Shown here: piece by piece, positions 1-16,013 of the stretch
How positions within the stretch are numbered: position 1 is the first letter of the stretch
Layout: each line of letters begins with the position of its first letter
NCBI GenBank assembly: GCA_018826075.1
Contig: JAHKAJ010000024.1
Location: forward strand, 145,694 to 209,693
Length of the DNA: 64,000 nt
Source: Candidatus Omnitrophota bacterium
GTDB lineage: Bacteria; Omnitrophota; Gorgyraeia; Duberdicusellales; 4484-171
Direction: 5' to 3'
Position numbers and translations under genes: made by a program
Notes under the pieces: generated by a model
Seen by the model: the letters and a program-made list of their open reading frames with translations, nothing else
Database searches by the model: none
Told to the model about the DNA's origin: nothing

Positions 1-70
1 GATCTTTAAGCTCGACAGCTACGATCGCCCCGACAATCATGAAAATCAATAAAAGATAAAGTTCCAGCAT
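1..70 (-). CDS. Partial N-terminus of a small hydrophobic NuoK/HyfE-like membrane subunit; it continues beyond the window edge.
   Basis: The reverse complement of 1..70 starts with ATG (cat at 68-70) and translates to MLELYLLLIFMIVGAIVAVELKD, a hydrophobic helix typical of NuoK/HyfE/MnhC. It is preceded by AAGGTG (possible SD). It lies directly downstream of the NuoL-like gene in the same operon. Confidence 0.35.
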   Translation of the reverse strand, partial: MLELYLLLIFMIVGAIVAVELKD

Positions 71-94
71 TTCGAGCACCTTAATTTAACTATC

Positions 95-122
95 CAGCGA
101 GATCCCGGCTACTGCCGGGATA
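95..122. repeat. Palindromic 28-bp repeat, copy 1 (cagcgaGATCCCGGCtactGCCGGGAta): a 7-bp perfect stem with a 4-nt loop.
   Basis: Direct reading: tcccggc / tact / gccggga is a perfect inverted repeat. A cagcga leader and ta trailer are shared with copy 2, which sits 40 bp downstream. Confidence 0.6.
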
Positions 123-134
123 ATTCTATTTATT

Positions 135-162
135 CAGCGAAATCCCGATTACTATCGGGATA
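135..162. repeat. Palindromic 28-bp repeat, copy 2 (cagcgaAATCCCGATtactATCGGGAta): a 7-bp stem with the same tact loop.
   Basis: Same architecture and flanks as copy 1. The stem bases are changed in a compensatory way (ggc/gcc versus gat/atc), which suggests the structure is conserved at the RNA or DNA level. Confidence 0.6.
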
Positions 163-174
163 CATTTTAATTGC

Positions 175-1833
175 CTATCGTAACAAAAGGTAAAAAAGTA
201 TACCCATACCTAAAAGACACCAGGCCAAATAAGTAGACAAAACTCCGTTGTGCAAATAACTTAGAGCGCGATTAAAACCAAAGGTGATCTTACTGCTCAC
301 TTCATAAATATCAAAGATTTTTTTCGCAGCTAACCGGTAAATAATTTTTAGAATGCCGATCTCCTGAACAGTATTGTAAAATTCTGTTCCCGAAATCCGC
401 ATCTGGGGATTATTTTTTAGGTCTTCACCGCCGATAAAAGGATCAGTTTGCCGCAGTTTAGCCACCCGGCCCAGAAAATAAATCAACAAACCGATTACTA
501 TGCTGATAATAAGTAAAATCGTTGCCAAACCGGCACTCCAAAATCCGAAAAATCGTATCGGTTCTAAAATAACCGGAAAGATAAAATGTTTAAGGGGAAC
601 CGCCAAAGCAAAAATTCCGAAAATTAAACATAAAAAGGCTAAAATGACTCCCGGCAGCCACATCAAAATCCCGACCTCCCGGTTTTCTTTCTTGGCCGCT
701 AATTTCCGACCTTGAGCCGGCTGGCCTAAAAATACCGCCTGCAGTAATTTCATAAAACTAGCTAAAGTCAAAGCACTGCCAAACATAGCTGAAATCAGCC
801 AAACTACCCAAAGCTTGCCGCCGGTTTTTGCAGTTTCCAGAATTCCCTGATAGACCATCCATTTAGAAACAAAACCATTAAATGGCGGTATTCCCGAAAT
901 AGCAAAGGCAGCAATTAAAAAAGTAACGAAAGTAACCGGCATGTATTTGGCTAATCCGCCCAACGAATCAAGGTTGGTGGTTTTAGCCTGCTTTTCAACT
1001 GACCCGGCCGAAAAAAACAGACAGGATTTATATATGGCGTGATTTAACATATGAAAAAGCCCGCCGGCAATACCGATGGGGTTGCCGGTGCCGATTCCCA
1101 AAACCATATAGCCGACCTGGCTCACGGCATGATAGCCAAGCAGCCTTTTAAAATCATGCTGGATGAGAGCCATCATCACTGCCGCTACAATAGTGAGACT
1201 GCCGATAAACATTAAAAAGGTATTCATCCCGGAATCAAGACGGAACATCTCCAGGGAAATCCGGGCTAAAAAATATATTCCCAAAAGTTTATCCAAAGAT
1301 GCCGGTAAATACGCTGTAACCGGTGCTGGTGAATCCTCAGCGGCATCAGGAACCCAGGTATGAAAAGGCATTGCTCCGGCTTTGGCAAAAGCTCCGGCTG
1401 CCAGGCAAAGATAAGCAATCACTGCCAGTTTAGAAGTCAAGGGTATCGAAATCAGATCCATTTCAAACAAACCGGTGAGTTTCCAGACAAGACTGATCCC
1501 TAAAAGCATTAAAACATCAGTTCCGCCGATTAAGATAAAAGCCTTCTTGGCCGTAGCCGGCGTATTCTCGTTTTTGCCAAAACCGATCAAAAGATACAGC
1601 AGCAGCCCTAAAAATCCCCAAAAAACCATAAATAAAATCAAGTTGTTGGCAAAAACTGCGCCTAAAGAAGCGATTAGAGTGAGGCCTATGTAGAGGTAGT
1701 ACTGAGGGGTCCTTTTTTCTGAACGCATATACCCCATAGAATAGACAGTCACCAGGATAGAAAAAAACCAGACGAATATCCCCACAAATATCGATAAATT
1801 GTCAAAACGGAAATATTCCTGAAACAAACTCAT
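175..1833 (-). CDS. Antiporter-like membrane subunit of an energy-converting hydrogenase (NuoL/NuoM/NuoN/MnhD/HyfB family), 552 aa.
   Basis: It is a multi-TM protein. Conserved NuoL/HyfB-like blocks are present (WVPDA...SPAPVTAYL, GYHAVSQVGYMVLGIG, FHMLNHAIYKSCLFFSAGS). Its start overlaps the stop of the hydrogenase large subunit gene (1830..1833). Confidence 0.8.
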   Translation of the reverse strand: MSLFQEYFRFDNLSIFVGIFVWFFSILVTVYSMGYMRSEKRTPQYYLYIGLTLIASLGAVFANNLILFMVFWGFLGLLLYLLIGFGKNENTPATAKKAFILIGGTDVLMLLGISLVWKLTGLFEMDLISIPLTSKLAVIAYLCLAAGAFAKAGAMPFHTWVPDAAEDSPAPVTAYLPASLDKLLGIYFLARISLEMFRLDSGMNTFLMFIGSLTIVAAVMMALIQHDFKRLLGYHAVSQVGYMVLGIGTGNPIGIAGGLFHMLNHAIYKSCLFFSAGSVEKQAKTTNLDSLGGLAKYMPVTFVTFLIAAFAISGIPPFNGFVSKWMVYQGILETAKTGGKLWVVWLISAMFGSALTLASFMKLLQAVFLGQPAQGRKLAAKKENREVGILMWLPGVILAFLCLIFGIFALAVPLKHFIFPVILEPIRFFGFWSAGLATILLIISIVIGLLIYFLGRVAKLRQTDPFIGGEDLKNNPQMRISGTEFYNTVQEIGILKIIYRLAAKKIFDIYEVSSKITFGFNRALSYLHNGVLSTYLAWCLLGMGILFYLLLR

Positions 1834-3041
1834 TTTATACCTTTTGTACGGGCGGCAAATTTGCCGCCCCTACTTTTAATTTTCTCGGTTTTAGCTTGTG
1901 AGAGCCTAACTAAATCCTCACCATTATAAAGTTTTTTACCCTTTTGATTAACCACAGCCATTCTTTCAGTACAACAGTAACAAGGATCGATTGCCGCCAG
2001 GATTATAGTTGCATCGGAAATCGTCTCGCCGACCACAGTCGCTTTATAGGTCGGCAGATTCATAAAAGTTGGGGCTCGTATTTTATGGCGGGCCGGGCGG
2101 TTAGTCCCGTCGCTTTTTACATAGTGAAAACATTCACCCCTTGGCGCTTCGATCTGGCCGATACCTTCTCCGGGAGGTATGTTTTTAATATTAGCGTCGA
2201 TTTCAGTATCCGGCAAGCTTAAAAGACAGCGCTTAACCATGTCTATCGATTGAAAAGTCTCTAAAATCCTTACTACCGCCTTGTCGAAAACATCTCCGTT
2301 GTCAGTGACAATGATATCCCAATTTAAACGGTCATAGGCTCCGTAAGGGCAATCTTTCCTCAAATCCCTGGCGATCCCCGAAGCTCTAGCAGTAGGCCCT
2401 AAGGCACAAAAATTAATTGCCTCCTCTTTAGTTAAAACCCCTACTCCTTTTGTCCGGGCATGCAAAACCGGGTCATCAATGACTGCTTTTTTAAGCATTT
2501 CTAAAGTCGGGATGATTGAATCGATTTTTTTAATCACCCCTGGAATATCTTCTTTCTTGATATCCCGCCTGACGCCACCGGGTTTAAACATGGCGTAATT
2601 ATTCCGATTACCGGAAAGTATTTCCATCACATCAAGTATTTCTTCGCGCAATTTCCAAGCCCACATGTAAACTGTATTGTAACCGAGAAAATGCCCGGCT
2701 AAACCCAACCAGAGAAGGTGCGAATGAATGCGTTCGCCTTCAGCAATAATCGTGCGGATGTATTTGGCTCGCAACGGCACTTCTAAACCGATCACATCTT
2801 CAATTGCCCGGGTGTAAGCATAAGGATGGCTGGTTGAACAGATACCGCAAATTCTTTCTACGGCAAAGGTAGACTGGTCAAAAGTTTTTCGTTCAGAAAG
2901 TTTTTCAATACCCCGGTGGTTATAACCGATTTGGACATCAATATCGATCACAGTCTCCCCGTCAACCGTCAGGGTAAAAAATTCCGGTTCCTCCTGTAAA
3001 GGATGATACGGGCCAATCGGCACTATGGTTCGTTTTCCCAT
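1830..3041 (-). CDS. [NiFe]-hydrogenase large subunit, group 4 (NuoD/EchE/HycE-C-terminal-like). The likely true start is the internal Met (MGKRTIVPIGPYHP).
   Basis: The N-terminal L1 motif RICGICSTSH and C-terminal L2 motif DPCYCCTER (the Ni-Fe ligating cysteines) are both intact, so this is a true hydrogenase, not a Nuo/Ehr paralogue. PIGPYHP matches the NuoD-like N-terminus. About 35 aa lie C-terminal to the DPCxxCxxR motif. The ATG at 3039-3041 overlaps the NuoC-like stop by 1 nt. Confidence 0.85.
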   Translation of the reverse strand: MGKRTIVPIGPYHPLQEEPEFFTLTVDGETVIDIDVQIGYNHRGIEKLSERKTFDQSTFAVERICGICSTSHPYAYTRAIEDVIGLEVPLRAKYIRTIIAEGERIHSHLLWLGLAGHFLGYNTVYMWAWKLREEILDVMEILSGNRNNYAMFKPGGVRRDIKKEDIPGVIKKIDSIIPTLEMLKKAVIDDPVLHARTKGVGVLTKEEAINFCALGPTARASGIARDLRKDCPYGAYDRLNWDIIVTDNGDVFDKAVVRILETFQSIDMVKRCLLSLPDTEIDANIKNIPPGEGIGQIEAPRGECFHYVKSDGTNRPARHKIRAPTFMNLPTYKATVVGETISDATIILAAIDPCYCCTERMAVVNQKGKKLYNGEDLVRLSQAKTEKIKSRGGKFAARTKGIK

Positions 3042-3514
3042 TATAAACCTCGATCCCGAATTGAAGAATCGTCCCACTCTTTATAGTCACGTCTCAACGG
3101 ATAAACCCCTTGCGGCCATTCATCAGGCAAAAGCAGCCGCTTTAACTCCGGATGGCCTTTGAAGTTTACCCCCAGCATTTCGCAGATTTCCCGTTCTATC
3201 CAGTTAGCTCCTTCGAATATCGGAGCTAAAGAATCTATCTCTAATTTGTTCTTTAAAAGTTTTACCCGAAATGAAATCAGGAAATTGATTTCATCAAAAG
3301 TGAAATGATAAAGAATCTCTATGTGCTTATGGGTATCCAGGCCGCTGGCAATATTAAACCGGGCACCCAGATTTTTAAAAACATAGGTAGCAATAACCAC
3401 TAAAGCCTGGGGTTTGATCTCGATGTAGACCCGCTTGGGAGATTTATCAAAAACTTCCAGAATCTCCCCCTTAAAACGTTCACCTATATCTTTTAAAATA
3501 TCGCTTCGATTCAT
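3041..3514 (-). CDS. NuoC/EchD-like hydrogenase subunit (30 kDa subunit family), 157 aa.
   Basis: Its size and position between the NuoB-like and NuoD-like genes fit this family. Conserved C-terminal region: ANWIEREICEMLGVNFKGHPELKRLLLPDEWPQGVYPLRRDY. It is translationally coupled on both sides. Confidence 0.7.
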   Translation of the reverse strand: MNRSDILKDIGERFKGEILEVFDKSPKRVYIEIKPQALVVIATYVFKNLGARFNIASGLDTHKHIEILYHFTFDEINFLISFRVKLLKNKLEIDSLAPIFEGANWIEREICEMLGVNFKGHPELKRLLLPDEWPQGVYPLRRDYKEWDDSSIRDRGL

Positions 3515-3945
3515 TTTTTTTCTGGTTTAGCACTAAGTTTTTCTATTAATTTTACCACTCCGGCGATAATTGCTTCCGGCTTAGGCGGACAGCCTGGAAT
3601 ATATACGTCTACCGGAATAATCTTATCGACCGGCAAAGGGCAGTTATAACTGTGGATAAACATACCTCTGGATAAAGAGCATTCGCCGATCGCCACCACC
3701 ACACAAGGTTTTGGCATCTGTTGGTAAACCTGTTTGATCCGGGGAATGCATTTGCGATTAGCTGAACCGGTGACTAAAAGCACATCGGCATGCCGTATAC
3801 TGCCGGCTAAAAGCATGCCGAATCTTTCCACATCAAACCGGGGAGTCAAACAATCAAGTATCTCAATATCGCAATTATTACAACTTCCGGTAGAAAGATG
3901 AAATACCCAGGGTGACTTTAAAAGTGCTTTTAAGGTTATACTCAT
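3511..3945 (-). CDS. [NiFe]-hydrogenase small subunit, NuoB/EchC-like (proximal 4Fe-4S cluster), 144 aa.
   Basis: The NuoB-family cysteine pattern is present: GSCNNC...(R)KC...GEC...GCPP. Its size and operon context fit a group 4 hydrogenase. Confidence 0.85.
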   Translation of the reverse strand: MSITLKALLKSPWVFHLSTGSCNNCDIEILDCLTPRFDVERFGMLLAGSIRHADVLLVTGSANRKCIPRIKQVYQQMPKPCVVVAIGECSLSRGMFIHSYNCPLPVDKIIPVDVYIPGCPPKPEAIIAGVVKLIEKLSAKPEKK

Positions 3946-4865
3946 AATCCTTTAAGAGCCAGGAAAACCGCCATCATGGCCAGTATGGTCATCGGCCCCC
4001 AGAAAAATCGCATCGCCTGGTCGATCCTAACCCGGGGGTTAGTGTTGCGAATAACCGTTATTAAAGCTACCAATCCCAAATATTTTAATATTCCGTTTAT
4101 CCAGTGGGCCCCGCTCAGGCGAAAACCACCCATAAAGAGAATCATTATAAAGAAAGGCAGGACAAACAACAACATATTTTTCATCAGTTTATATACCGCT
4201 AAAGGGGTACCGGAATATTCGATCAGTGGCCCGCCGACGATTTCGGTCTCGGCTTCCGGAATATCAAAAGGAACCAAAGCTAACTTTGCCTGAACGCACA
4301 TCAGGATAACCAAAAAAGCCAAAAAACCCGACCAACTTCCTAAAATTACGCCGTTCTGAACCTGATAAGTCAAGATCTCGCCTAGGCGCAGAGTAAACCC
4401 ACCTTGAATAACCGGAACTAAAATAGCCAGTAAAAACGGTAATTCATAACTTAGCACCAGTTTCATCTCCCGTGATGAACCGATACTAGCCAGGGGGTTT
4501 GCCGAGGCAAATCCGCCGATAATTATACTTAAGGAAGGTAAGACTAAAAGATAAACTACCACTATGATATCCCCGATAAAGGTCCTCTGAGGATTAAGAC
4601 AGTTAAACCAGAGTATCGTCGAAACCAAAATAACACTGCCTAAACCCAAAAGCGGCGCCGCTAAAAAACTAAACTTTGAAGCTCCCTTAGGAACCATAGT
4701 TTCTTTACCGAGCAGTTTAACTAAATCGATCAACGGTTGTAAAACCGGCGGGCCAACCCGGTATTGAACCCGGGCAGTGACCTTACGGTCAACCCAGCTG
4801 GCGAAAAGCCCGATTAACGCCGTTAAAAAAAATCCGAAAATAATCAGATAAATTAAATAAATCAT
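3942..4865 (-). CDS. NuoH/EchB/HyfC-like integral membrane subunit, 307 aa.
   Basis: It is a multi-TM protein with the position and size of EchB/HycD. Conserved region: PFDIPEAETEIVGGPLIEYSG. Confidence 0.8.
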   Translation of the reverse strand: MIYLIYLIIFGFFLTALIGLFASWVDRKVTARVQYRVGPPVLQPLIDLVKLLGKETMVPKGASKFSFLAAPLLGLGSVILVSTILWFNCLNPQRTFIGDIIVVVYLLVLPSLSIIIGGFASANPLASIGSSREMKLVLSYELPFLLAILVPVIQGGFTLRLGEILTYQVQNGVILGSWSGFLAFLVILMCVQAKLALVPFDIPEAETEIVGGPLIEYSGTPLAVYKLMKNMLLFVLPFFIMILFMGGFRLSGAHWINGILKYLGLVALITVIRNTNPRVRIDQAMRFFWGPMTILAMMAVFLALKGL

Positions 4866-4872
4866 TTATCGC

Positions 4873-5391
4873 TTAAGCCTTTTGGCGAACCCAATGAGTA
4901 GAATGAACTACCAGGTTATCGCCGACTAAAAAAGTATTTTCATTAAGTTCAACATCCGGACCAACCAGCTTCAATGCCCCGTGAGAGCAGGACTTTATAC
5001 AAAGCGGTTCAGTCGCTTCATTACGCCGATTGAGACAAAAATCACAGTTATGGTTAAGGTAAGGAACATGTTCCGGATAAATAGCCCCGTAAGGACAGGC
5101 ATAGGAACAGGATTTACAACTCACGCAGCGCATGTTATGTCTGGTCAATAGCTTATCGTTCTCCTTTTGCTGTTCCAAGGCCTCGTAGGGGCAAGAATTA
5201 ACGCAATGCGGCTCATCGCAGCGGCGGCAGACTAAAGCATAGGTTGCCAGCTCGACCACCGAGATTATACCGTTGTTGATCGGCTCCTGGCTGTGATAAA
5301 AATAACTGCATTGGATATCGCAGTCCTGGCATTTTCCGGCGGCGCAGATATCCAAATCCACAAACAGGCGTTTATCTTTAGTCGAATCCAT
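4873..5391 (-). CDS. Poly-ferredoxin-like 4Fe-4S electron-transfer subunit (HycB/HydN/NuoI-like), 172 aa.
   Basis: It has 16 Cys arranged in about four cluster-binding motifs (CxxCxxCxxxC, CRRCDEPHCVNSCP, CVSCKSCSYACP, CDFC...CIKSC). Confidence 0.75.
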   Translation of the reverse strand: MDSTKDKRLFVDLDICAAGKCQDCDIQCSYFYHSQEPINNGIISVVELATYALVCRRCDEPHCVNSCPYEALEQQKENDKLLTRHNMRCVSCKSCSYACPYGAIYPEHVPYLNHNCDFCLNRRNEATEPLCIKSCSHGALKLVGPDVELNENTFLVGDNLVVHSTHWVRQKA

Positions 5392-5394
5392 AAA

Positions 5395-6219
5395 TCAATC
5401 CCAAATACTAGGAAAATTTTTTATTTTGTCATAGGTAAATACCGGACCATCTTTACAGGCATAATAAGTTCCCAGCCGACAATGCCCGCATTTACCGATT
5501 CCACAAGACATGTTTTTTTCCATCGAAAGATAAATATTTTTTTCTTTAAATCCCAATTCCAGCAGTTTTTTAGTTGAAAATTTCATAGCGATCGGCGGGC
5601 CGCAGACAACCGCGATAGCCCTGGGGTAATCCATATCTAAATCATCCAGGATCGTAGTGACTACGCCTACGTTACCCTTCCAGGTGGGATCACCCTTATC
5701 CACAGTAAGCCTTAAGTTTAAATCATCTCTTTTGGCCCAGCCGTCTATTTCATTTCGGTACAATAATTCCTGGGGGTTTTTGCAGCCGCCGCGAAAGGAT
5801 AATTTTTTAAACTCACCGCTGCGAGAAAAAAATTCATACATCAAACTGCGCAACGGCGCCAGGCCGCAGCCGCCGCCGACCACAGCGATCTCTTTGCCTT
5901 TGAACTCGTCTATCGGGTAACCAGCGCCAAAAGGGCCCCTTACGCCGATAGTGTCGCCTTTTTTCAGCTCATGGATCCGGGCGGTGACTTTACCTACTTT
6001 CATCACCGTCACTTCCATTTCCTCGCGCAAAGAAGGCCGTGAAGACGGCGTAAACGGAGCCTCACCGACCCCGGGAACAGTCACCTCGATGAATTGGCCG
6101 GTTTTAAAACCAAACGGTTCGGCCGGCCGAAAACGAATAGTCTTGATAGTCGGGGTTTCGGTTATTGCCTCTAAAACTTTTGCTTCGATCGAACGGTAAG
6201 GATTATCGACTTTTTGCAT
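5395..6219 (-). CDS. FAD/NAD(P)H-binding oxidoreductase with a C-terminal 2Fe-2S cluster (PyrK / sulfhydrogenase gamma HydG / AsrB family), 274 aa.
   Basis: Ferredoxin-NADP-reductase-like fold motifs are present (RFRPAEP...GQFIEV, GGGCGLAPLRSL). The C-terminal CGIGKCGHCRLG...C cluster motif is typical of PyrK/HydG/AsrB. Confidence 0.75.
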   Translation of the reverse strand: MQKVDNPYRSIEAKVLEAITETPTIKTIRFRPAEPFGFKTGQFIEVTVPGVGEAPFTPSSRPSLREEMEVTVMKVGKVTARIHELKKGDTIGVRGPFGAGYPIDEFKGKEIAVVGGGCGLAPLRSLMYEFFSRSGEFKKLSFRGGCKNPQELLYRNEIDGWAKRDDLNLRLTVDKGDPTWKGNVGVVTTILDDLDMDYPRAIAVVCGPPIAMKFSTKKLLELGFKEKNIYLSMEKNMSCGIGKCGHCRLGTYYACKDGPVFTYDKIKNFPSIWD

Positions 6220-7237
6220 TGTCTACTAATTTTTTTAAAACTTTTCTAATATCAATCTTAGCCGGACAGGCTGATATACAACGGCCACATCCAGTGCAGG
6301 CAAATTCAGCTGCTACTTTGGGAAAAAAATCAAACTTTTTCTCAAAACGATTGCGCAGGCGCATCCAAAGTTTTTCGCGGGGATTAGCTCCGCCGGCAAC
6401 CCGGGCGAAATCTTTGATCATACAAGAATCCCAGATTCTTAAACGTTCCATTTGAGCATCGTTTTGCTGGTCATACAAAAGAAAACAATGGCAAGTAGGA
6501 CAAATCGTATTACAAGCCCCGCACTCAACACAAGCCTCAGCTTCCTCACTCCAGATCTCGCTCTCAAAGCCTTTTTCAACTACCCCTTTAAAAGACTCCT
6601 GGTTGGACAGGCCATTGCTTTTTACCTGAACCTCTACCTCACGGAATATTTTTTCCCGTCTGCGGTTACGGGTAGACATCAGGTCTTCCCGGGGCTGACG
6701 GAAAAACAAAGTATATTTTTCCACGATCCTCTTGCCTTTGCTCGAGCCGATCTCCACTAAATACCCCTCATCTACCGAAGAAAGGTTAAGGTCAAAATTC
6801 ATCTGGGGATAAGGTTTTAAACCCAAAGCAGTACAAAAACAACTCTCGATCACTGAAGTACAATCAGCCGAAATGACTAGGTTAGCCTCACGCAGCTTAA
6901 GATAGAACGGATCTTGATAATCATGGTTACTAAAAACATAGTCCTGAATCTTAAAACCTTTTAGATCACAGGCTTTTACCCCGACGATGGCAAAAGGTCT
7001 TTCAAGCCTTTGGGGGATTTTTTGGCTAAAGCCGGAAGCTACCCGTTCGCGGGCTCTAAAGAAAAAAGACTTTAACGGTTCAAAAGCCCGGACTTCTCCC
7101 ACCAGATAGTCAGCGCCGGCAGCAGTAAACTTCTGGTAAAAACGCTGCTGACCCTTTTTCACCGGGACAAAAACTTCGTAATCTTTCTTTAAACTTACTA
7201 AAAATTTTGAAAAATTTTCCGAAGAGATGTAATACAT
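6203..7237 (-). CDS. Iron-sulfur subunit of the AsrA / sulfhydrogenase beta (HydB) family, 344 aa.
   Basis: It has two CxxCxxCxxxCP ferredoxin motifs (CVECGACNTICPTCHC and CTGCGRCISACPAKID). Its size and pairing with the PyrK/AsrB-like gene immediately downstream fit this family. It is the first gene of the operon. Confidence 0.7.
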   Translation of the reverse strand: MYYISSENFSKFLVSLKKDYEVFVPVKKGQQRFYQKFTAAGADYLVGEVRAFEPLKSFFFRARERVASGFSQKIPQRLERPFAIVGVKACDLKGFKIQDYVFSNHDYQDPFYLKLREANLVISADCTSVIESCFCTALGLKPYPQMNFDLNLSSVDEGYLVEIGSSKGKRIVEKYTLFFRQPREDLMSTRNRRREKIFREVEVQVKSNGLSNQESFKGVVEKGFESEIWSEEAEACVECGACNTICPTCHCFLLYDQQNDAQMERLRIWDSCMIKDFARVAGGANPREKLWMRLRNRFEKKFDFFPKVAAEFACTGCGRCISACPAKIDIRKVLKKLVDNAKSR

Positions 7238-7281
7238 ACCGGTTTTTATTTTCAGCGTATTTTTTCGGTTATCAGCTTACT

Positions 7282-7299
7282 TTGTGAATAAAATCACAA
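7282..7299. promoter_or_regulatory. Perfect palindromic operator cTTTGTGAataaaaTCACAAAg (TGTGA-N6-TCACA, CRP/FNR type). It also fits a Rex-type site, TTGTGAA-N4-aTCACAA, with one mismatch.
   Basis: Direct reading: an 8-bp perfect inverted repeat with a 6-bp AT spacer. Its centre is about 53 nt upstream of the first hydrogenase-operon start codon (7237). It lies between the predicted -10 element and the start codon. Confidence 0.45.
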
Positions 7300-7314
7300 A
7301 GCAAATTAGAGGCT

Positions 7315-7343
7315 AAATTAACATAAATGCCCCTGGTTGTCAA
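7315..7343 (-). promoter_or_regulatory. Sigma70-like promoter for the hydrogenase operon: -35 TTGACA (7338..7343) and -10 TAATTT (7315..7320) with a 17-bp spacer.
   Basis: Read on the minus strand. The consensus -35 and spacing are exact. It sits in the only sizeable intergenic gap (7238..7353), between the LPS operon stop and the hydrogenase operon start. Confidence 0.4.
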
Positions 7344-11081: not shown

Positions 11082-12151
11082 TCAAGGATCTCCTGGTGTA
11101 CTTTTAAGGTTTCCAAAGCCATTTGAGTCAAGGAAAATTGGAAAACATCTTCGGCGGCAGCAGTAACGATTTTTTCCCGCAGAGAGTCATCAGACATGAC
11201 CTCCTCGATCGCCGCGGCCAAAGCATAGGGTTCATAATTGTAAAATAAAATCCCATTTTCCCGGCTGCGGATGATTTCCGGAATTCCTCCGGTGCAATAA
11301 CCGATAACCGGGACTTTTTTAGCAAAAGCTTCGATTACCGAATAACCAAAACCTTCCTTAGCTGATGGGACTATCAATAAATCGATCAAATCAAGAAACT
11401 GTCCTGGCGGCAATACTAAAAACCGTACCTGCTGGCCCAAATTTTCAGCCGCCAGGAGTTTTTCCAACTTTTCTTTCAGCTTTCCTTCTCCGGAAATTAC
11501 TAGATAAATATTTTTGTAACGGTCCAGGAGTTTTTTCATTGCTTCTACGGCCAGAAAATGGCCCTTTTCCTGAGAAACTCTGCCGAGGATCCCGATCAGA
11601 AAATCTCCGGCTGAAAAACCCTGGTCTTGTTTACGGCATTGGCCGGGAAAAAACTCATCAAGATCGACCCCGTTGTAAACCACCCGGATCTTCTTTTCCG
11701 AAATCCATAGATCCCGAATCAGGTGGCGCCTGACTTTTTTGCTGACCGCGATTGATAAAACTCCTGAAAAGGGAAAAAATCTTCTAAACAGGCCGGGCCG
11801 GTAAAAACCGTGATAAACCGAAAGATAAGGAACTTTTAAAAAACAATAGATCAATCCCCCTAAAAATTGAGTCACCCGGGTGTTACTATGGACAATATCG
11901 ATTTTCTCCTCAAGGATCATTTTCTTAATAAACAAAAAAGAAACCCAAACTTTCATGCTGGCAATTGATTTTGTTTTTATCGGGATAGTTTTATGTACTG
12001 CCCCGGAATTTTCCAGGATTTCTACCCAGTCGCCGCCGCTGGAAGCTACCAAAACCCGATGGCCCTGCTTGATCAATCCCTTGGACAAATTTAAAACATA
12101 GCGGGAAATTCCACCGGGATTCAGATGCGTAGCTAAAATCAATACGTTCAT
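11078..12151 (-). CDS. GT4 (group 1) glycosyltransferase, 357 aa.
   Basis: The N-terminus ILATHLNPGGISRYVLNLSKGL and the C-terminal SAKEGFGYSVIEAFAKKVPVIGYCTGG (the EX7E-like region of GT-B retaining transferases) support this call. Confidence 0.75.
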   Translation of the reverse strand: MNVLILATHLNPGGISRYVLNLSKGLIKQGHRVLVASSGGDWVEILENSGAVHKTIPIKTKSIASMKVWVSFLFIKKMILEEKIDIVHSNTRVTQFLGGLIYCFLKVPYLSVYHGFYRPGLFRRFFPFSGVLSIAVSKKVRRHLIRDLWISEKKIRVVYNGVDLDEFFPGQCRKQDQGFSAGDFLIGILGRVSQEKGHFLAVEAMKKLLDRYKNIYLVISGEGKLKEKLEKLLAAENLGQQVRFLVLPPGQFLDLIDLLIVPSAKEGFGYSVIEAFAKKVPVIGYCTGGIPEIIRSRENGILFYNYEPYALAAAIEEVMSDDSLREKIVTAAAEDVFQFSLTQMALETLKVHQEILE

Positions 12152-14205
12152 TATTTCAATATTTCCTTAATCTTGTTAAAAACTGCCTGAGGGGTTATTT
12201 TTCCCAGACAAAGACTTTGGTCAGAAAACTTACATTTTGGTTTATAACAAAAAGAACAGGGCAGATTTTCGGAAAATACAGTAAGACTAGGGTCAGGAAC
12301 TGTGTGCCGTTTAGGGTCAGTCGGCCCAAAAAGAGCGATCACCTTAAGGCCCAGGCTTTGAGCCAGGTGCAAAGTAGCTGTATCTGGAGTAATAAAAATC
12401 TTAAGTTTAGCTAAAACTCCTGCTATTTCCCCCAGGGCAGTCTTACCGCAAAGATTGATCAGACGCAAACCGGCTGATTTTTCAATCGCTTCAGCCACTA
12501 TCTTCGCTGCCGGTTCACCGATCAGAACGACCTTTGCCTCCGGGAGATTTTTCTGAATCAAATTTACTAAATGTTTTATCTGATCGGGAGACCAGTTTTT
12601 AGAACTCCAGCGGGCAGAAGCCGACAGATTTATTCCGATTAATTCTCCTTGCTCAAGCAGGCCTTTAGCTGGCTCTTTACGTTCCCAAAAAACCAGTTTT
12701 TTCTCGCTGATCCTGACTCCCAACAATTGCAGGATCTTTTCCTGCGAATCGAGTGGTCCTATTTTTCGATCATAGGCAATACTCTTAGTCAAAAGCCTTC
12801 CCCAACGCAGACGATAGCCGAAAGAAAAACGGCTAAAACTCAGGAAAGCTATCAGGTGTGAGCTGCGGTTATTTTGTAAATCAATAATATAATCAAAACT
12901 CGCCCGGCGTAAAGCTTTGGAAATCTTATTAATATTGCCTATTCTCTTATAACCGTCATCCATAGCGACAATTTCGTCAATATACGGGCAATCGCATAAA
13001 AAAGAATAGTATTTCTTTAAAGTCAAAAGGGTGATTTTGGCCTGCGGATACGCCTCACGTAACGCCTTCAAAGAAGGTAAGCTTAAAATAATATCCCCCA
13101 GGGAAGAAAACTTGATCACCAGAATATTTAGACTCTCGATCGTTTCCTGATAAACTTTCTTAGTTAAATCCAAACAGTACTGAAGATTATAGCTCTGCTC
13201 GACTTTGCGACGGGCCTTAAGGGTCAATTCAGTGGCATATTGGGGATTTTTTATTATTTTTAGCATAGCTTCGGCAATGCCGCCAGGATTTTTAGGCTCG
13301 ACCAAAATCCCATCCTTACCGTTTTCGATTATTTCTTTAAAACCTCCGAGATTACTGGCAATCACCGGAACCCCACAGGCAAAGCCTTCGATAGCCACCC
13401 TGCCGAAAGACTCCTCGATCACCGAAGGAGCAACTAAGATCCGGGCATCGCTTAAAACATTCTCCACGTCTTTATGGAAACCGCAAAATTCAACATTGTA
13501 ATTCAGGGAAAAACGCCGAACCATACTTTTTAAATAATCCAAATAACGTAATTTTGACTTGTCGGCTGAACCGATTATTTTCAATTTAAAATAGGGATTA
13601 AACCTTACTACTTTTTTAAACGCCTCAATTAAAAATTCATAACCCTTAGTCGGCGAAATCCGGCCCATACTGACGATCAGATTACTCTCCTGGCGTTTAG
13701 AGTAATCACGAAAAGTAAACTTATCCAAATCCACCCAACGCTGGACAATCCTGATCTTTTTTTCAGGAACTCCAAAACTATCCTTCATGTGCCGAGCCAC
13801 CAGTTTGGAAGGACAAATCACGTATTTACCCCAACCCATGACCTCGCTGGAAAGCGGGCTCTTATAAACTCCGTGGGCAGTAGTGACAAACTGAGTATTC
13901 GTTTTACGGGTTGCAAAAAAACTCAGCCAGGCCGGCACCCGGCTGCGGGCATGGACAATATCGATATTTTCCTTAGCAATAATCGCTTTCAGGCTTTTGA
14001 TATGCAACAAGCTTAAAGGTGACTTACGGTGTACGGCAAGCTGGTAATGCTTGATCCCCAATTTTTCCAATTCTTCAGTAAGCCGGCCGCCGGAACTGAC
14101 TACGATATTTTCAATACCCCGGGATTTAAAAAACTTGACCAAGTCCATAACCCCTCTCTCGGTACCGCCGATATTCATAGCCGGAAGGATCTGCATTACC
14201 CTCAT
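12151..14205 (-). CDS. In-frame two-domain glycosyltransferase: N-terminal GT4 (about 1-355) fused to C-terminal GT9 heptosyltransferase-like (about 360-684).
   Basis: GT4 N-terminus: MRVMQILPAMNIGGTERGVMDL...EESFGRVAIEGFACGVPVIASNLGG. This is followed by ILVIKFSSLGDIILSLPSLKALREAYPQAKITLL and the heptosyltransferase C-terminal block TPDTATLHLAQSLGLKVIALFGPTDP. There is no stop or frameshift between the domains. Confidence 0.75.
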   Translation of the reverse strand: MRVMQILPAMNIGGTERGVMDLVKFFKSRGIENIVVSSGGRLTEELEKLGIKHYQLAVHRKSPLSLLHIKSLKAIIAKENIDIVHARSRVPAWLSFFATRKTNTQFVTTAHGVYKSPLSSEVMGWGKYVICPSKLVARHMKDSFGVPEKKIRIVQRWVDLDKFTFRDYSKRQESNLIVSMGRISPTKGYEFLIEAFKKVVRFNPYFKLKIIGSADKSKLRYLDYLKSMVRRFSLNYNVEFCGFHKDVENVLSDARILVAPSVIEESFGRVAIEGFACGVPVIASNLGGFKEIIENGKDGILVEPKNPGGIAEAMLKIIKNPQYATELTLKARRKVEQSYNLQYCLDLTKKVYQETIESLNILVIKFSSLGDIILSLPSLKALREAYPQAKITLLTLKKYYSFLCDCPYIDEIVAMDDGYKRIGNINKISKALRRASFDYIIDLQNNRSSHLIAFLSFSRFSFGYRLRWGRLLTKSIAYDRKIGPLDSQEKILQLLGVRISEKKLVFWERKEPAKGLLEQGELIGINLSASARWSSKNWSPDQIKHLVNLIQKNLPEAKVVLIGEPAAKIVAEAIEKSAGLRLINLCGKTALGEIAGVLAKLKIFITPDTATLHLAQSLGLKVIALFGPTDPKRHTVPDPSLTVFSENLPCSFCYKPKCKFSDQSLCLGKITPQAVFNKIKEILK

Positions 14206-14207
14206 AG

Positions 14208-16013
14208 TTAAATTAGCTCCTCTATGGCTTTACCAACCTTTTCTTTATTCTTAGCAAAAATCTGGCAAGAACGTAAAACGATCGACTCAAAATCATAGGG
14301 TTTTTCTAAAAAACTGACTTCATTGCCTATCGATTCAAGAAATACCTTATGTTTGTCGCCTTCCTGGCCTAAGCTGACACAAACTGTCGATGGATTAATG
14401 GCTATACTTTCGGAAATCATCGAAATGCTGTCAGTGGTAATAAAAGCTACTTCAGCCAAAGCCACAAACCCTTCAAAAACAAAATCAAAATTTTGCCGGT
14501 TGGCCAAAACACAAGCTGCAGTTTGCTTAAAATCCTTAAGTTCTTTTTCGATCAACTTCTCGGCCGCAGGCGGCGTGCGCCGCGAGCTGCTCAAGAGTAT
14601 TTGATAATTATTTTTTTCGGCAAAGTCTTTTACTTTGGAAATAAAAACTTTTAGGTTTTCAAAAAATTCCTGTTTATTCAGTAATGGCCCGCCGATAAAA
14701 AATGAAATCTTTTTACCTTCGGGCAGGCCGAAAAGATCTTTGCATTGGCTTATTTTTTCTTCCAAATTTTCCGGATAACAAAGAGCACCTTTGATCGCGA
14801 CAGCCCGGGGCCCGGGAATCCGGTCATGTTCAGGAATAACCGCTAAGTCAAATTTTCGCAACGGTACATTCGGCCGTAAGATAACCACTGATTTTGCGCC
14901 CAAATAAGAAGCCAATAATTTATTTGCCGGTGCGGCAATGCTGCCGGCACTGATCACTAAATCAGCACAAACGCTATCCAGAGCCCGCCAGGTTTTCTTA
15001 TCTACCACCCAGGAAAGCAGTCTTCCTGAAAATAAACAGTGACGGCTAACGCAGGTTGCAAAAAGGTCAGCCAAAAAACGGTGGAATTGACTACGATATC
15101 TGATTTCGATGGTCCGGCTGCGGATCAGCTTCTTTCTTTCCGACAATAACCGCAACAGCGAACGCGATTGTTTAAAGTGGCCGAGTTTTCGATCGGTCAG
15201 GATCACGATATCACGGTTCAATTTACGTTTAAAACGTTTGTAATACCAAAAATATTCCCAGGGATACTTCCTTAAATAATCTTCGTAAATCTTATTCAAC
15301 GACTGAAGGATCTCTTCGTCGCTCTTTCCCGAAGGGTCTATCGGCTTTCCGATCTCGCTGACGTGATGAGTCAGGTTTTTCCGGTAACAAAAATCCGGAT
15401 ATATTTTTTTATTGAATTTTTTTGCCAGGTAGACCGAACCGCGCGGAGTAGGGACTAAATGCGAGAAAAACTCGACTACTGGTGCGTCTTTTTCAGCGCC
15501 ATGATCGATGACTATGCCGATCAAGTGATCGTTCTTTAAATAACGGATCAACTCCTTGATCGAAAAAACCACATTGATCTTTCCCTCGACCCTCACTTCG
15601 TTTAAAAACCGGTCGAGTTCCTTGTTTTTCTGTTCCTTGGCGAAAATAGCAAAAGTCCGGCGATGGGCAAAAAGAGATATCGCAGTTTCCCAATTACCGG
15701 CATGGATCCCGACAAAAATCCCGCCGTCGGGAGTGATGTTTTCTTCCCCCTTGATAGTCACAAAGGGATAGATCCTCGGTGCGATAAGGTTTTCAATGAC
15801 ATCCAAAACCAGGTAATGGAAACTTCGCTTCAAAATAGCGTGCAGTTCCTGATAAGACTTTTCAGGAAAAGCCAGCTTAATGTTGCGGAAAGCCACCCGG
15901 CGCTTACGGCGATGATAATAAAAAATCAGCCCGATAAACTTTGCCAAAGCATAGATGACCCAAAAAGGAGCTTTAAGCAACATTCGCTGAAGTAACTTAC
16001 AAAAATTATACAT
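14208..16013 (-). CDS. Lipid A secondary acyltransferase (LpxL/LpxM family, about 1-260) fused to a roughly 330-aa C-terminal domain resembling DUF1022 / ELM1-like (predicted GT-B-like).
   Basis: The N-terminus has a TM helix plus an HX4E-type acyltransferase motif (GIHAGNWE). The C-terminal domain begins DIVILTDRKLGHFKQSRSLL, reminiscent of the [IV]L[ST]D.[KR].GH..Q start of bacterial ELM1/DUF1022 proteins. The domain assignment is from memory, without a database search. Confidence 0.5.
   Translation of the reverse strand: MYNFCKLLQRMLLKAPFWVIYALAKFIGLIFYYHRRKRRVAFRNIKLAFPEKSYQELHAILKRSFHYLVLDVIENLIAPRIYPFVTIKGEENITPDGGIFVGIHAGNWETAISLFAHRRTFAIFAKEQKNKELDRFLNEVRVEGKINVVFSIKELIRYLKNDHLIGIVIDHGAEKDAPVVEFFSHLVPTPRGSVYLAKKFNKKIYPDFCYRKNLTHHVSEIGKPIDPSGKSDEEILQSLNKIYEDYLRKYPWEYFWYYKRFKRKLNRDIVILTDRKLGHFKQSRSLLRLLSERKKLIRSRTIEIRYRSQFHRFLADLFATCVSRHCLFSGRLLSWVVDKKTWRALDSVCADLVISAGSIAAPANKLLASYLGAKSVVILRPNVPLRKFDLAVIPEHDRIPGPRAVAIKGALCYPENLEEKISQCKDLFGLPEGKKISFFIGGPLLNKQEFFENLKVFISKVKDFAEKNNYQILLSSSRRTPPAAEKLIEKELKDFKQTAACVLANRQNFDFVFEGFVALAEVAFITTDSISMISESIAINPSTVCVSLGQEGDKHKVFLESIGNEVSFLEKPYDFESIVLRSCQIFAKNKEKVGKAIEELI

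What the first reader, a model, noticed from the sequence alone, without database searches (positions are those of the whole stretch)
1..7237. Chimeric energy-converting [NiFe]-hydrogenase operon: an Ech-like group-4 core joined to an AsrAB / sulfhydrogenase-type NAD(P)H-binding beta/gamma module
Nine tightly overlapping (translationally coupled) minus-strand genes run in this order: an AsrA/HydB-like Fe-S subunit, a PyrK/HydG/AsrB-like FAD-NAD(P)H-2Fe2S subunit, a polyferredoxin, a NuoH-like subunit, a NuoB-like small subunit, a NuoC-like subunit, a NuoD-like large subunit, a NuoL-like antiporter subunit, and a NuoK/HyfE-like subunit that runs off the window.

The large subunit keeps both Ni-Fe cysteine pairs (CGICSTSH and DPCYCCTER), so this is a real hydrogenase rather than an Ehr/Nuo relic. 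The beta/gamma pair is the diaphorase module that in cytosolic group 3b sulfhydrogenases and in anaerobic sulfite reductase couples to NAD(P)H.

Taken together, the gene content predicts a membrane-bound, ion-translocating hydrogenase that exchanges electrons directly with NAD(P)(H). This would be an Ech/Hyf-type pump wired to a pyridine-nucleotide module instead of ferredoxin or formate. I do not recognise this architecture as one of the described group 4 subtypes.

The large subunit also has a roughly 35-aa tail after DPCxxCxxR, which implies endopeptidase-dependent maturation. No hyp or maturation protease genes are in the window.
Basis: partly seen in the sequence, partly recalled or inferred. 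Interest (0 to 1): 0.75.

Follow-up and report, generated by a model that had tools for sequence, protein, structure and literature searches.

The report
Hun-type membrane hydrogenase operon, Rex-controlled
The first 7.3 kb of the window hold the front half of a 'hun' operon, a 16-subunit membrane hydrogenase of Omnitrophota and other anaerobes that has been named but never tested biochemically; it carries a flavin/NAD(P)H-type entry module and, as shown here, a binding site for the NADH-sensing repressor Rex.

Summary
The genes are real and in the stated order. Three labels need correcting. The core is Mrp-Mbh-type, not Ech-like. The ninth gene is MbhD/E-like, not NuoK/HyfE-like, and follows a 104-nt spacer. 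The large-subunit tail is 43 aa.

The novelty claim fails. This is the hun operon (hunA-hunH plus the start of hunI) named by Glass et al. (bioRxiv 10.1101/536078). They reported it in Atribacteria, Omnitrophica, Elusimicrobia and cultured Kosmotoga, with the same CGIC/CYCC signature and a HydDB group 4g call. A Saganbacteria paper also noted it.

In 57 of 58 related loci with enough flank, hunA-hunB-hunC sit directly before the core; the 58th has a frameshifted hunB. No AsrC-like sulfite reductase gene lies next to it.

Published models assume ferredoxin as donor. HunB keeps invariant FAD, NAD(P) and 2Fe-2S motifs. HunC and HunP wire it to the core as HycB and HycF do in formate hydrogenlyase. 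A Rex operator (7282-7299) precedes hunA and recurs at the 5' end of 26 related operons.

Rex also controls ferredoxin-dependent hydrogenases, so the donor stays open. Interest is moderate; the gene cluster is already known.

The parts
7315..7343 (-). Candidate promoter of the operon: TTGACA (7343-7338), 17-nt spacer, TAATTT (7320-7315)
   Evidence: Read directly. The -35 hexamer is perfect. The -10 matches only 3 of 6, so the tool's own scan did not list it. Inferred, not shown.
7282..7299 (-). Rex operator TTGTGATTTTATTCACAA, an 18-bp palindrome that begins 62 nt upstream of the hunA ATG (44 nt lie between the site and the ATG)
   Evidence: It has one mismatch to the consensus TTGTGAANNNNTTCACAA (consensus cited in PMC6391272). 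It is the only match in the 64-kb window. The same site lies upstream of hunA in 13 related loci, and upstream of a rex gene that precedes hunA in 13 more. Only 5 matches lie elsewhere in about 1 Mb.
6203..7237 (-). hunA: HydB/ShyB/AsrA-like Fe-S subunit (344 aa)
   Evidence: Pfam Fer4_22 1e-30. NCBIfam ShyB 192, HydB 165, AsrA 138 bits, all below cut-offs. PDB best match is P. furiosus sulfhydrogenase I beta, 9nez_B, 3e-44. Cys motifs are conserved in 60 orthologues.
5395..6219 (-). hunB: HydG/AsrB/PyrK-like FAD + NAD(P) + [2Fe-2S] subunit (274 aa)
   Evidence: Pfam FAD_binding_6, NAD_binding_1 and DHODB_Fe-S_bind. PDB 9nez_C 6e-58. The motifs APFTPSS, GGGxGxAP, CGPP and CGxGxCGHC...C are invariant or nearly so in 65 orthologues.
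4873..5391 (-). hunC: HycB/CooF-type ferredoxin, 16 Cys, enough for four [4Fe-4S] clusters (172 aa)
   Evidence: Pfam Fer4_11 2e-15. Best PDB matches are HDCR HycB4 (1e-10), HycB3 and FHL HycB.
3942..4865 (-). hunD: NuoH/MbhM-like membrane subunit (307 aa)
   Evidence: Pfam NADHdh 2e-66.
3511..3945 (-). hunE: NuoB/MbhJ-like small subunit (144 aa)
   Evidence: Pfam Oxidored_q6 3e-28. The cluster Cys residues are invariant.
3041..3514 (-). hunF: NuoC/MbhK-like subunit (157 aa)
   Evidence: Pfam Complex1_30kDa 4e-26.
1830..3041 (-). hunG: [NiFe] large subunit (403 aa from ATG 3041; the ORF extends to GTG 3077). L1 is RICGICSTSH and L2 is DPCYCCTER, followed by a 43-aa C-terminal extension
   Evidence: PDB MbhL 6cfw_L 3.5e-90 and HycE 7z0s_E 4.6e-83. 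Both motifs are invariant in 82 sequences. The tail MAVVNQKGKK resembles the HycE tail MTVVDVRKKK.
175..1833 (-). hunH: MbhH/NuoL/MrpD-like antiporter subunit (552 aa)
   Evidence: Pfam Proton_antipo_M 1e-58. It matches the NuoL models only from about position 77 onward.
71..174 (-). 104-nt hunH-hunI spacer with two hairpins, each with an 8-bp stem (142-160 and 102-120)
   Evidence: The spacer and hairpins are absent from all 81 related loci. In L001 the gap between these two genes is 7 nt.
1..70 (-). 5' end of hunI (MbhD/MbhE-like), which runs off the window
   Evidence: MLELYLLLIFMIVGAIVAVELKD compared with L001 MFELYILLIFMIVGAIVAVELKD. The L001 protein carries Pfam MbhD + MbhE.

Best explanation
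Window 1-7343 is the promoter-proximal half of a hun operon. It comprises hunA to hunH and the first 23 codons of hunI.

The encoded Hun complex is an Mrp-Mbh-type, complex-I-like group-4 [NiFe]-hydrogenase. In relatives the operon continues with MnhB-, MrpC-, MrpD-, MrpE-, MrpF- and MrpG-like genes, a HycF/NuoI-like Fe-S subunit (HunP), and then hycI and hypA.

Proposed electron path (inferred from homology): NAD(P)H, then FAD and [2Fe-2S] in HunB, then the [4Fe-4S] clusters of HunA, then four clusters in HunC, then two in HunP, then the single cluster of HunE, then the Ni-Fe site of HunG. The path is reversible. The HunD/HunH/Mrp membrane arm couples it to H+/Na+ movement.

NAD(P)H to H2 is uphill or near equilibrium (E0' about -320 mV against -414 mV; established values). 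The likely physiological mode in a fermenter is therefore H2 evolution from NAD(P)H, assisted by inward ion flow or by very low H2. The reverse mode would be an H2-driven, ion-pumping NAD(P)+ reductase.

Transcription is repressed by Rex and released when NADH/NAD+ rises.

Shown: gene content, order, motifs, conservation and the Rex site. Inferred: substrate, direction, ion coupling.
For: Identity as hun:
- Same gene order, 16-gene layout and CGIC/CYCC signature as described in 10.1101/536078.
- The syntenic Omnitrophota relative L001 shows the full set.
- 57 of 58 loci with at least 2.5 kb upstream of hunD have hunA-hunB-hunC. 47 of 51 loci with enough downstream flank have hunH to hunP.

NAD(P)H link:
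- HunB matches the gamma subunit of the NADP-coupled group 3b enzyme (9nez_C 6e-58; 3b is 'NADP-coupled' in HydDB).
- Its FAD, NAD(P) and 2Fe-2S motifs are invariant across phyla, so they are under selection.
- P. furiosus Mbh takes ferredoxin without any such module.

Wiring: HunP resembles HycF/NuoI/MbhN and HunC resembles HycB. HunAB therefore sits where FdhF sits in formate hydrogenlyase.

Redox control:
- The Rex operator at 7282-7299 is the only one in the window.
- It recurs at the 5' end of 26 related hun operons.
- A rex gene that passes NCBIfam cut-offs (258 bits against 126) flanks many of these operons.

Ecology: Omnitrophota MAGs were each reported to carry a single hydrogenase type, 3b, 3d, A3 or 4g. 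By established classification the first three are NAD(P)-linked.
Against: - There is no biochemical evidence for any Hun enzyme.
- The only paper that names the complex proposes ferredoxin as donor. Group 4g is annotated as putatively ferredoxin-coupled.
- Rex also represses the ferredoxin-dependent membrane [NiFe]-hydrogenase of C. bescii, so Rex control does not prove direct NADH use.
- Rex sites were found mainly in Omnitrophota-type loci. They were absent upstream of hunA in all but one (L066, a 2-mismatch match) of the Fermentibacteria, Aegiribacteria, Hydrogenedentota and Spirochaetota loci.
- NAD(P)H-driven H2 evolution cannot power outward ion pumping, which is the usual role of an Mrp-Mbh enzyme.
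- A HunP/MbhN-like subunit that could dock ferredoxin is retained.
- NADH versus NADPH specificity cannot be read from the sequence.
Confidence: 0.5

Rival explanations
1. Published model: Hun is a ferredoxin-oxidising, H2-evolving H+/Na+ pump. HunABC act only as an Fe-S wire that accepts electrons from reduced ferredoxin. NAD(P)H is not a substrate.
For: Glass et al. propose this. HydDB lists group 4g as putatively ferredoxin-coupled. The closest solved large subunit is the ferredoxin-dependent P. furiosus MbhL. Ferredoxin to H2 is exergonic enough to pump ions. Rex control is compatible with it.
Against: This model leaves the strictly conserved FAD and NAD(P) motifs of HunB unexplained. Mbh itself needs no such module. 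The premise that AsrAB take electrons from ferredoxin is asserted in that paper, not shown. The gamma homologue in group 3b enzymes is the NADPH site.
Confidence: 0.27
2. Three-way hub: Hun takes electrons from both ferredoxin (at HunP/HunC/HunA) and NAD(P)H (at HunB). It would act as a membrane-bound confurcating-like hydrogenase, or as an ion-coupled ferredoxin:NAD(P)+ oxidoreductase with H2 as an overflow valve.
For: Both a HycF/MbhN-like subunit and an FNR-like subunit are conserved. Using both donors would solve the thermodynamic problem of making H2 from NADH. Rex control fits a redox-balancing role.
Against: No subunit resembles a known bifurcating flavoprotein such as NfnB/GltD, HydB/NuoF or EtfAB. 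HunB is PyrK/NfnA-like, which is not the bifurcating site (established knowledge). The idea is purely speculative.
Confidence: 0.18
3. hunAB are a separate AsrAB-type sulfite or sulfur reductase unit, or a separate operon, that merely lies next to a hydrogenase.
For: NCBIfam's best hit for HunB is AsrB (238.6 bits). P. furiosus sulfhydrogenase has S0-reductase activity in vitro (noted in HydDB).
Against: - No AsrC or siroheme gene lies nearby. The genes upstream are LPS-core genes, and none is present in L001.
- The AsrA and AsrB scores are below cut-off (138 against 323; 239 against 289).
- Among 20 sampled nearest HunA relatives, none reaches the AsrA cut-off, and all score higher on one of the two 3b beta models (ShyB or HydB) than on AsrA.
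- The junctions hunA/hunB (17-nt overlap), hunB/hunC (3-nt gap) and hunC/hunD (7-nt gap) are tight.
- The order is conserved in 57 of 58 loci across several phyla, with one Rex-controlled 5' end.
Confidence: 0.03

Closest known systems
Hun supercomplex (hunA-P) of Atribacteria and other subsurface bacteria (Glass et al., bioRxiv 10.1101/536078)
   Same: Same gene order: AsrA-like, AsrB-like, Fe-S, NuoH, NuoB, NuoC, large subunit, antiporter, Mrp genes, Fe-S. Same CGIC/CYCC Ni-Fe motifs. The same phylum (Omnitrophica) is listed among carriers.
   Different: Nothing structural. The differences here are the 104-nt hairpin spacer between hunH and hunI, an 8-aa longer HunG tail, and the Rex operator, which that paper does not mention. 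The paper proposes ferredoxin as donor; the evidence here leans towards NAD(P)H.
Saganbacteria RX5A 'enigmatic' Mrp-Mbh-type group 4 hydrogenase (Matheus Carnevali et al. 2019, PMC6349859)
   Same: Hydrogenase and Mrp subunits together with cooF-like, asrA-like and asrB-like genes, read as an 'oxidoreductase module'. Its nearest relatives are stated to be in Zixibacteria and Omnitrophica.
   Different: The Saganbacteria version also has an FdhH-like molybdopterin gene. None is present here or in the 81 loci examined.
Pyrococcus furiosus Mbh (group 4d, PDB 6cfw)
   Same: Closest solved large subunit (3.5e-90). Shares Mrp-type membrane modules, including MbhD/E, MnhB, NuoK-like and MbhH-like subunits, and an MbhN/NuoI-like Fe-S subunit.
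   Different: Mbh has 14 subunits, takes ferredoxin directly at MbhN, and has no HycB-like, HydB-like or HydG-like subunits. The gene order is reversed: in mbh the Mrp genes come first (established knowledge).
E. coli formate hydrogenlyase (group 4a, PDB 7z0s) and Mrp-linked formate/CO-respiring complexes (group 4b)
   Same: The same modular logic applies: a group-4 core, then a HycF-type subunit, then a HycB/CooF-type wire, then a soluble catalytic input module. The HycE tail resembles the HunG tail.
   Different: The input module is FdhF or CooS in those enzymes. Here it is a flavin/NAD(P)-type beta/gamma pair.
Group 3b NADP-coupled hydrogenase (sulfhydrogenase I, PDB 9nez), beta and gamma subunits
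   Same: HunA matches the beta subunit (3e-44) and HunB matches the gamma subunit (6e-58). The FAD, NAD(P) and 2Fe-2S motifs are retained.
   Different: In 3b enzymes the partner is a soluble alpha/delta group-3 hydrogenase. Here it is a membrane-bound group-4 core. The scores lie far below the ShyB/HydB/HydG equivalog cut-offs.
Respiratory complex I (Nuo)
   Same: Homologous Q-module and P-module subunits (NuoB, C, D, H, I, K, L/M/N). If the NAD(P)H reading holds, both also have a pyridine-nucleotide input.
   Different: The input module is not homologous to NuoEFG. The acceptor is H+ at a Ni-Fe site rather than quinone.

Membership tests
[NiFe]-hydrogenase group 4 | Large subunit of the NuoD type with the four Ni-Fe cysteine ligands (L1 CxxC, L2 CxxC) | tested here: met
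   Pfam Complex1_49kDa + NiFeSe_Hases. RICGICSTSH and DPCYCCTER align with the ligands of MbhL and HycE and are invariant in 82 sequences.
[NiFe]-hydrogenase group 4 | NuoB-type small subunit with one [4Fe-4S] site, plus NuoC- and NuoH-like partners | tested here: met
   Pfam Oxidored_q6, Complex1_30kDa and NADHdh. The NuoB Cys residues are conserved.
Hun complex (hunA-P) | Gene order AsrA-like, AsrB-like, Fe-S, NuoH, NuoB, NuoC, large subunit, antiporter, then Mrp genes and a final Fe-S subunit | tested here: met
   hunA to hunH and the start of hunI are in the window. The remainder was seen in the syntenic relative L001 and in 47 of 51 loci. The window itself ends at hunI.
Hun complex (hunA-P) | L2 motif CYCC instead of the usual CxxC with a non-Cys residue at position 3 | tested here: met
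   DPCYCCTER. The signature is stated and is invariant.
HydDB group 4g | Assignment by the HydDB classifier or sequence-similarity network | not testable with these tools
   HydDB is not available here. The literature assigns HunG and the Omnitrophota Mrp-linked enzymes to 4g, and states that HunG is distant from other 4g sequences.
Ech-type hydrogenase (group 4e) | Six subunits, a single antiporter-like subunit, no Mrp module | tested here: not met
   An MbhH-like gene is followed by an MbhD/E-like gene in the window. Relatives add MnhB, MrpC, a second antiporter subunit, and MrpE, F and G.
Group 3b sulfhydrogenase | Group-3 alpha/delta hydrogenase subunits encoded with the beta/gamma pair | tested here: not met
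   The only hydrogenase subunits present are group-4 type. ShyA and HydA scores are 49 and 33 bits against cut-offs of 700 and 880.
Anaerobic sulfite reductase AsrABC | AsrC siroheme subunit adjacent; AsrA and AsrB above the TIGR02910 and TIGR02911 cut-offs | tested here: not met
   No AsrC lies in the neighbourhood. AsrA scores 137.7 against 323 and AsrB 238.6 against 288.6.
Rex regulon | 18-bp operator TTGTGAANNNNTTCACAA in the promoter region, conserved in orthologous operons | tested here: met
   7282-7299, one mismatch, the sole match in the window. It recurs at 26 related hun 5' ends, with 5 matches elsewhere in about 1 Mb. Actual binding was not tested.
HycI-dependent maturation | C-terminal extension after the L2 Arg, and a dedicated endopeptidase gene | tested here: inconclusive
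   A 43-aa extension begins MAVVNQKGKK, similar to HycE. hycI is absent from the window but follows the operon in L001 and in most loci. Cleavage itself is not testable here.

The most novel reading that the evidence does not exclude
Hun is a complex-I-like respiratory enzyme that acquired a pyridine-nucleotide entry module (HydB/HydG-type) independently of NuoEFG. It would work as an ion-coupled NAD(P)H:H+ oxidoreductase. It would either use the ion gradient to push NADH electrons onto protons in fermenters that have no other hydrogenase, or pump ions during H2-dependent NAD(P)+ reduction. Its expression would be set by the NADH/NAD+ sensor Rex.
Probability: 0.4. Interest if true: 0.7.

Novelty: already known. 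Interest (0 to 1): 0.35.

Why it matters
Hun-type large subunits are about 80-90% identical across Omnitrophota, Atribacterota, Fermentibacterota, Hydrogenedentota, Spirochaetota and Elusimicrobiota. At least 591 stretches in the GTDB species-representative collection of genomes encode a relative. The enzyme is therefore probably a major route of H2 metabolism in anoxic sediments, digesters and the deep subsurface.

Metabolic reconstructions currently book it as a ferredoxin-driven ion pump. If it in fact exchanges electrons with NAD(P)H, energy yields, syntrophy thresholds and H2 budgets for these uncultured phyla would need revising.

It would also be a second, independent way in which a complex-I-type machine acquired an NADH input. 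Hun is reported in cultured Kosmotoga, so the question can be tested directly.

Tried and rejected
1. 'Ech-like' was rejected once the relative's full operon showed a complete Mrp module.
2. A separate AsrAB(C) sulfite reductase was rejected. There is no AsrC, scores fall below cut-off, and synteny is strict.
3. I looked for the molybdopterin (FdhH-like) insertion reported between hunB and hunC. None occurs in the 81 loci; the largest gap is about 500 nt.
4. The apparent loss of hunB in L033 turned out to be frameshifts.
5. Sampling 20 of the 150 nearest 50%-identity cluster representatives of HunA showed a broad, unnamed HydB/ShyB-like family with no bona fide AsrA. No context is retrievable for these proteins, so the origin of the module stays unresolved.
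6. Literature searches for biochemical work on Hun, on Kosmotoga or Atribacter hydrogenases, and for the sulfhydrogenase I structure paper found nothing usable.
7. Rfam found no RNA family at the hairpin spacer.
8. The tool's promoter scan did not list the TTGACA-17-TAATTT pair because its -10 criterion is not met.
9. NADH versus NADPH preference: I compared HunB with the sulfhydrogenase I gamma subunit around the end of strand beta2. A conserved Lys aligns with an Arg, which is too weak to support a call.
10. The genome-contig scan kept only the best 80 loci, so I could not verify Kosmotoga myself.

Full report
**What is in the sequence**

Eight complete minus-strand ORFs fill window 7237-175. 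A ninth starts at 70 and runs off the edge. Pfam and NCBIfam give the following:
- a Fer4_22 protein of the HydB/ShyB/AsrA family
- an FNR-like FAD/NAD/[2Fe-2S] protein of the HydG/AsrB/PyrK family
- a 16-Cys Fer4_11 ferredoxin
- NuoH-, NuoB- and NuoC-like subunits
- a NuoD-type [NiFe] large subunit
- a NuoL/MbhH-like antiporter subunit

Seven junctions are overlaps or gaps of at most 7 nt. The large subunit carries RICGICSTSH and DPCYCCTER. These align residue for residue with the Ni-Fe ligands of P. furiosus MbhL (6cfw_L, 3.5e-90) and E. coli HycE (7z0s_E). The observation therefore stands.

Four details need correcting. The ninth gene is MbhD/MbhE-like, not NuoK/HyfE-like. A 104-nt spacer, not an overlap, separates it from the gene before it. 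The large subunit probably starts at ATG 3041, because homologues are 389-399 aa. Its tail after the L2 arginine is 43 aa.

**Source and surroundings**

The nearest large subunits are 80-90% identical and come from Omnitrophota MAGs. The rest of the window is ordinary chromosome: LPS-core genes directly upstream, then topA, secY, EF-Tu, EF-G, rpoB, rpoC, ligA and two tRNAs. No hycI, hyp or rex gene lies in the window.

A syntenic Omnitrophota contig (L001) has the same LPS genes upstream and shows what lies beyond the window edge. After the MbhD/E-like gene come MnhB-, NuoK/MrpC-, MrpD-, MrpE-, MrpF- and MrpG-like genes. Then follow a 203-aa HycF/NuoI/MbhN-like Fe-S protein, hycI, hypA, a HypC-radical-SAM fusion and rex. 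The enzyme is therefore Mrp-Mbh-type, not Ech-like.

**Conservation**

A scan of the GTDB species-representative collection of genomes found at least 591 stretches encoding a relative. The best 80 loci come from MAGs whose record titles name Omnitrophota, Atribacterota, Elusimicrobiota, Spirochaetota, Fermentibacteria/Aegiribacteria and Hydrogenedentota, among others. Their large subunits are 78-90% identical to the window's.

Of 58 loci with at least 2.5 kb upstream of the NuoH-like gene, 57 have the beta, gamma and Fer4_11 genes directly in front. The exception (L033) has the gamma gene broken by frameshifts. Of 51 loci with enough downstream sequence, 47 have the whole membrane arm and the final Fe-S gene on the same strand.

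The beta/gamma pair is therefore an integral, conserved part of the unit and not a neighbour by accident. No AsrC-like gene is nearby.

**It is already described**

Glass et al. (bioRxiv 10.1101/536078) named exactly this 16-gene cluster hun. HunA and HunB are AsrA/AsrB-like, HunC is an Fe-S protein, and HunD, E and F are NuoH-, NuoB- and NuoC-like. HunG is the large subunit, HunH to HunO form the antiporter/Mrp module, and HunP is an Fe-S protein.

They reported it in Atribacteria, Firmicutes, Omnitrophica, Elusimicrobia and Bacteroidetes MAGs and in cultured Kosmotoga. They noted the CGIC/CYCC signature seen here. HydDB placed HunG in group 4g, although distant from other 4g sequences.

Matheus Carnevali et al. 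(PMC6349859) had earlier described an 'enigmatic' Mrp-Mbh-type enzyme in Saganbacteria. Its nearest relatives are in Omnitrophica, and it has cooF-, asrA- and asrB-like genes read as an oxidoreductase module. Williams et al. (PMC8542988) list group 4g, Mrp-linked hydrogenases in Omnitrophota. [quoted passage not shown]

**How it probably works**

The published model routes ferredoxin electrons through HunABC to the Ni-Fe site. It mentions neither NAD(P)H nor Rex. Three results here bear on that model.

First, HunB is a full FNR-type module. Its nearest solved relative is the gamma subunit of P. furiosus sulfhydrogenase I (9nez_C, 6e-58), from the NADP-coupled group 3b. Its FAD motif (APFTPSS), NAD(P) motif (GGGxGxAP), CGPP and 2Fe-2S cysteines are invariant or nearly so in 65 orthologues from several phyla. 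A ferredoxin-only wire would not need them.

Second, HunP resembles HycF/NuoI/MbhN and HunC resembles HycB. HunAB therefore occupies the position that the formate dehydrogenase holds in formate hydrogenlyase, as an input or output module at the end of an Fe-S wire.

Third, an 18-bp Rex operator (TTGTGATTTTATTCACAA, 7282-7299) begins 62 nt upstream of hunA, just downstream of a TTGACA-17-TAATTT pair. It is the only match in the window. The 81 related loci were scanned over about 1 Mb. In 13 of them a match lies upstream of hunA. In 13 more it lies upstream of a rex gene that directly precedes hunA. Only 5 matches lie elsewhere. The rex assignment passes NCBIfam cut-offs.

Rex releases repression when NADH/NAD+ rises (PMC6391272). 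This fits an enzyme that disposes of NADH-derived electrons better than one that makes NADH.

**Caveats**

Rex also represses the ferredoxin-dependent membrane [NiFe]-hydrogenase of C. bescii, so the operator shows redox control and not the donor. Rex sites were absent upstream of hunA in all but one (L066, a 2-mismatch match) of the Fermentibacteria, Aegiribacteria, Hydrogenedentota and Spirochaetota loci.

Thermodynamics (established values) also matter. NADH to H2 is +18 kJ/mol under standard conditions and near equilibrium at about 10 Pa H2, so it cannot drive outward pumping. An NAD(P)H-linked Hun would have to consume ion-motive force to evolve H2, or pump only in the H2-uptake direction. 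A mixed use of ferredoxin and NAD(P)H is not excluded.

I put the NAD(P)H-linked reading at about 0.5, ferredoxin-only at about 0.27, a dual-donor hub at about 0.18, and an independent AsrAB unit at about 0.03.

**Origin of the beta/gamma pair**

HunA scores 192 bits on ShyB, 165 on HydB and 138 on AsrA. HunB scores 239 on AsrB, 217 on a 'hydrogenase gamma' model and 189 on HydG. All are below cut-off.

An exhaustive search of 1.84 billion cluster representatives found 810 clusters at E <= 1e-30. Twenty sampled from the top 150 all look like HunA itself: each scores higher on one of the two 3b beta models (ShyB or HydB) than on AsrA, and none reaches a curated cut-off. The pair therefore belongs to a large, unnamed HydB/HydG-like family and not to bona fide AsrAB. 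The tools gave no context for those proteins, so I could go no further.

**Verdict**

The operon is a real, single, conserved hydrogenase unit with a pyridine-nucleotide-type module, but it is Mrp-Mbh-type and already named Hun (group 4g by HydDB).

This analysis adds the conserved Rex operator, the invariance of the HunB cofactor motifs, and the FHL-like wiring through HunC and HunP. Together they make NAD(P)H coupling a serious alternative to the published ferredoxin model. The question is open and can be tested in Kosmotoga. Interest is moderate (0.35).

Noticed in passing
window 102-120 and 142-160 (spacer 71-174): Two copies of a roughly 40-nt repeat, each forming an 8-bp hairpin with loop AGTA: ATCCCGAT-AGTA-ATCGGGAT and ATCCCGGC-AGTA-GCCGGGAT. 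Compensatory changes between the copies preserve the stem. They sit between hunH and hunI. Neither occurs elsewhere in the window, in any of the 81 related loci, or in Rfam. On the opposite strand they score as terminator-like. They could be an mRNA processing or stability element, or a small inserted repeat.
   Followed up: partly
L001 18361-19692 (orthologues in L010, L013, L014, L018, L025, L029, L036, L037, L045, L055): A 443-aa fusion of a HypC/HupF chaperone domain with a HydE-like radical SAM enzyme (TIGR03956 248.9 bits against a cut-off of 254.6). It follows hycI-hypA at the 3' end of hun operons. In L001 it is followed by rex and a second radical SAM/BATS gene. A [FeFe]-maturase-like enzyme fused to a [NiFe] chaperone is unusual, particularly next to a hydrogenase with an extra Cys in L2.
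   Followed up: no
L069, L076, L034, L047, L074 (Spirochaetota-labelled): A variant layout. The HycF-like hunP and hycI follow hunG directly. In L069 and L076 the antiporter/Mrp genes are transcribed divergently upstream of hunA.
   Followed up: no
L016 6505-16489 (CP070780.1, closed Omnitrophota MAG chromosome): rex and hunA to hunG are present, but unrelated genes (a radical SAM enzyme and membrane proteins) follow hunG instead of hunH to hunP. This is either a split operon or an assembly join near the start of the record.
   Followed up: partly
L018 11159-13003: An extra antiporter-like gene of about 1.8 kb lies between hunG and hunH in one Omnitrophota locus.
   Followed up: no
window 3042-3077: The mechanical ORF for the large subunit starts at GTG 3077, inside the NuoC-like gene. 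Homologue lengths and the 1-nt stop/start overlap seen in L001 point to ATG 3041 as the real start.
   Followed up: yes
window 12151-16013: Two fused LPS-related proteins lie upstream. One is a 684-aa GT4 glycosyltransferase joined to a GT9 heptosyltransferase. The other is a 601-aa lipid A acyltransferase joined to an ELM1-like domain.
   Followed up: no
L046 771-809, L049 4899-4937, L081 181-219: Where rex precedes hunA, some loci carry two adjacent Rex-box matches 21 nt apart upstream of rex. This suggests autoregulation through tandem operators.
   Followed up: no
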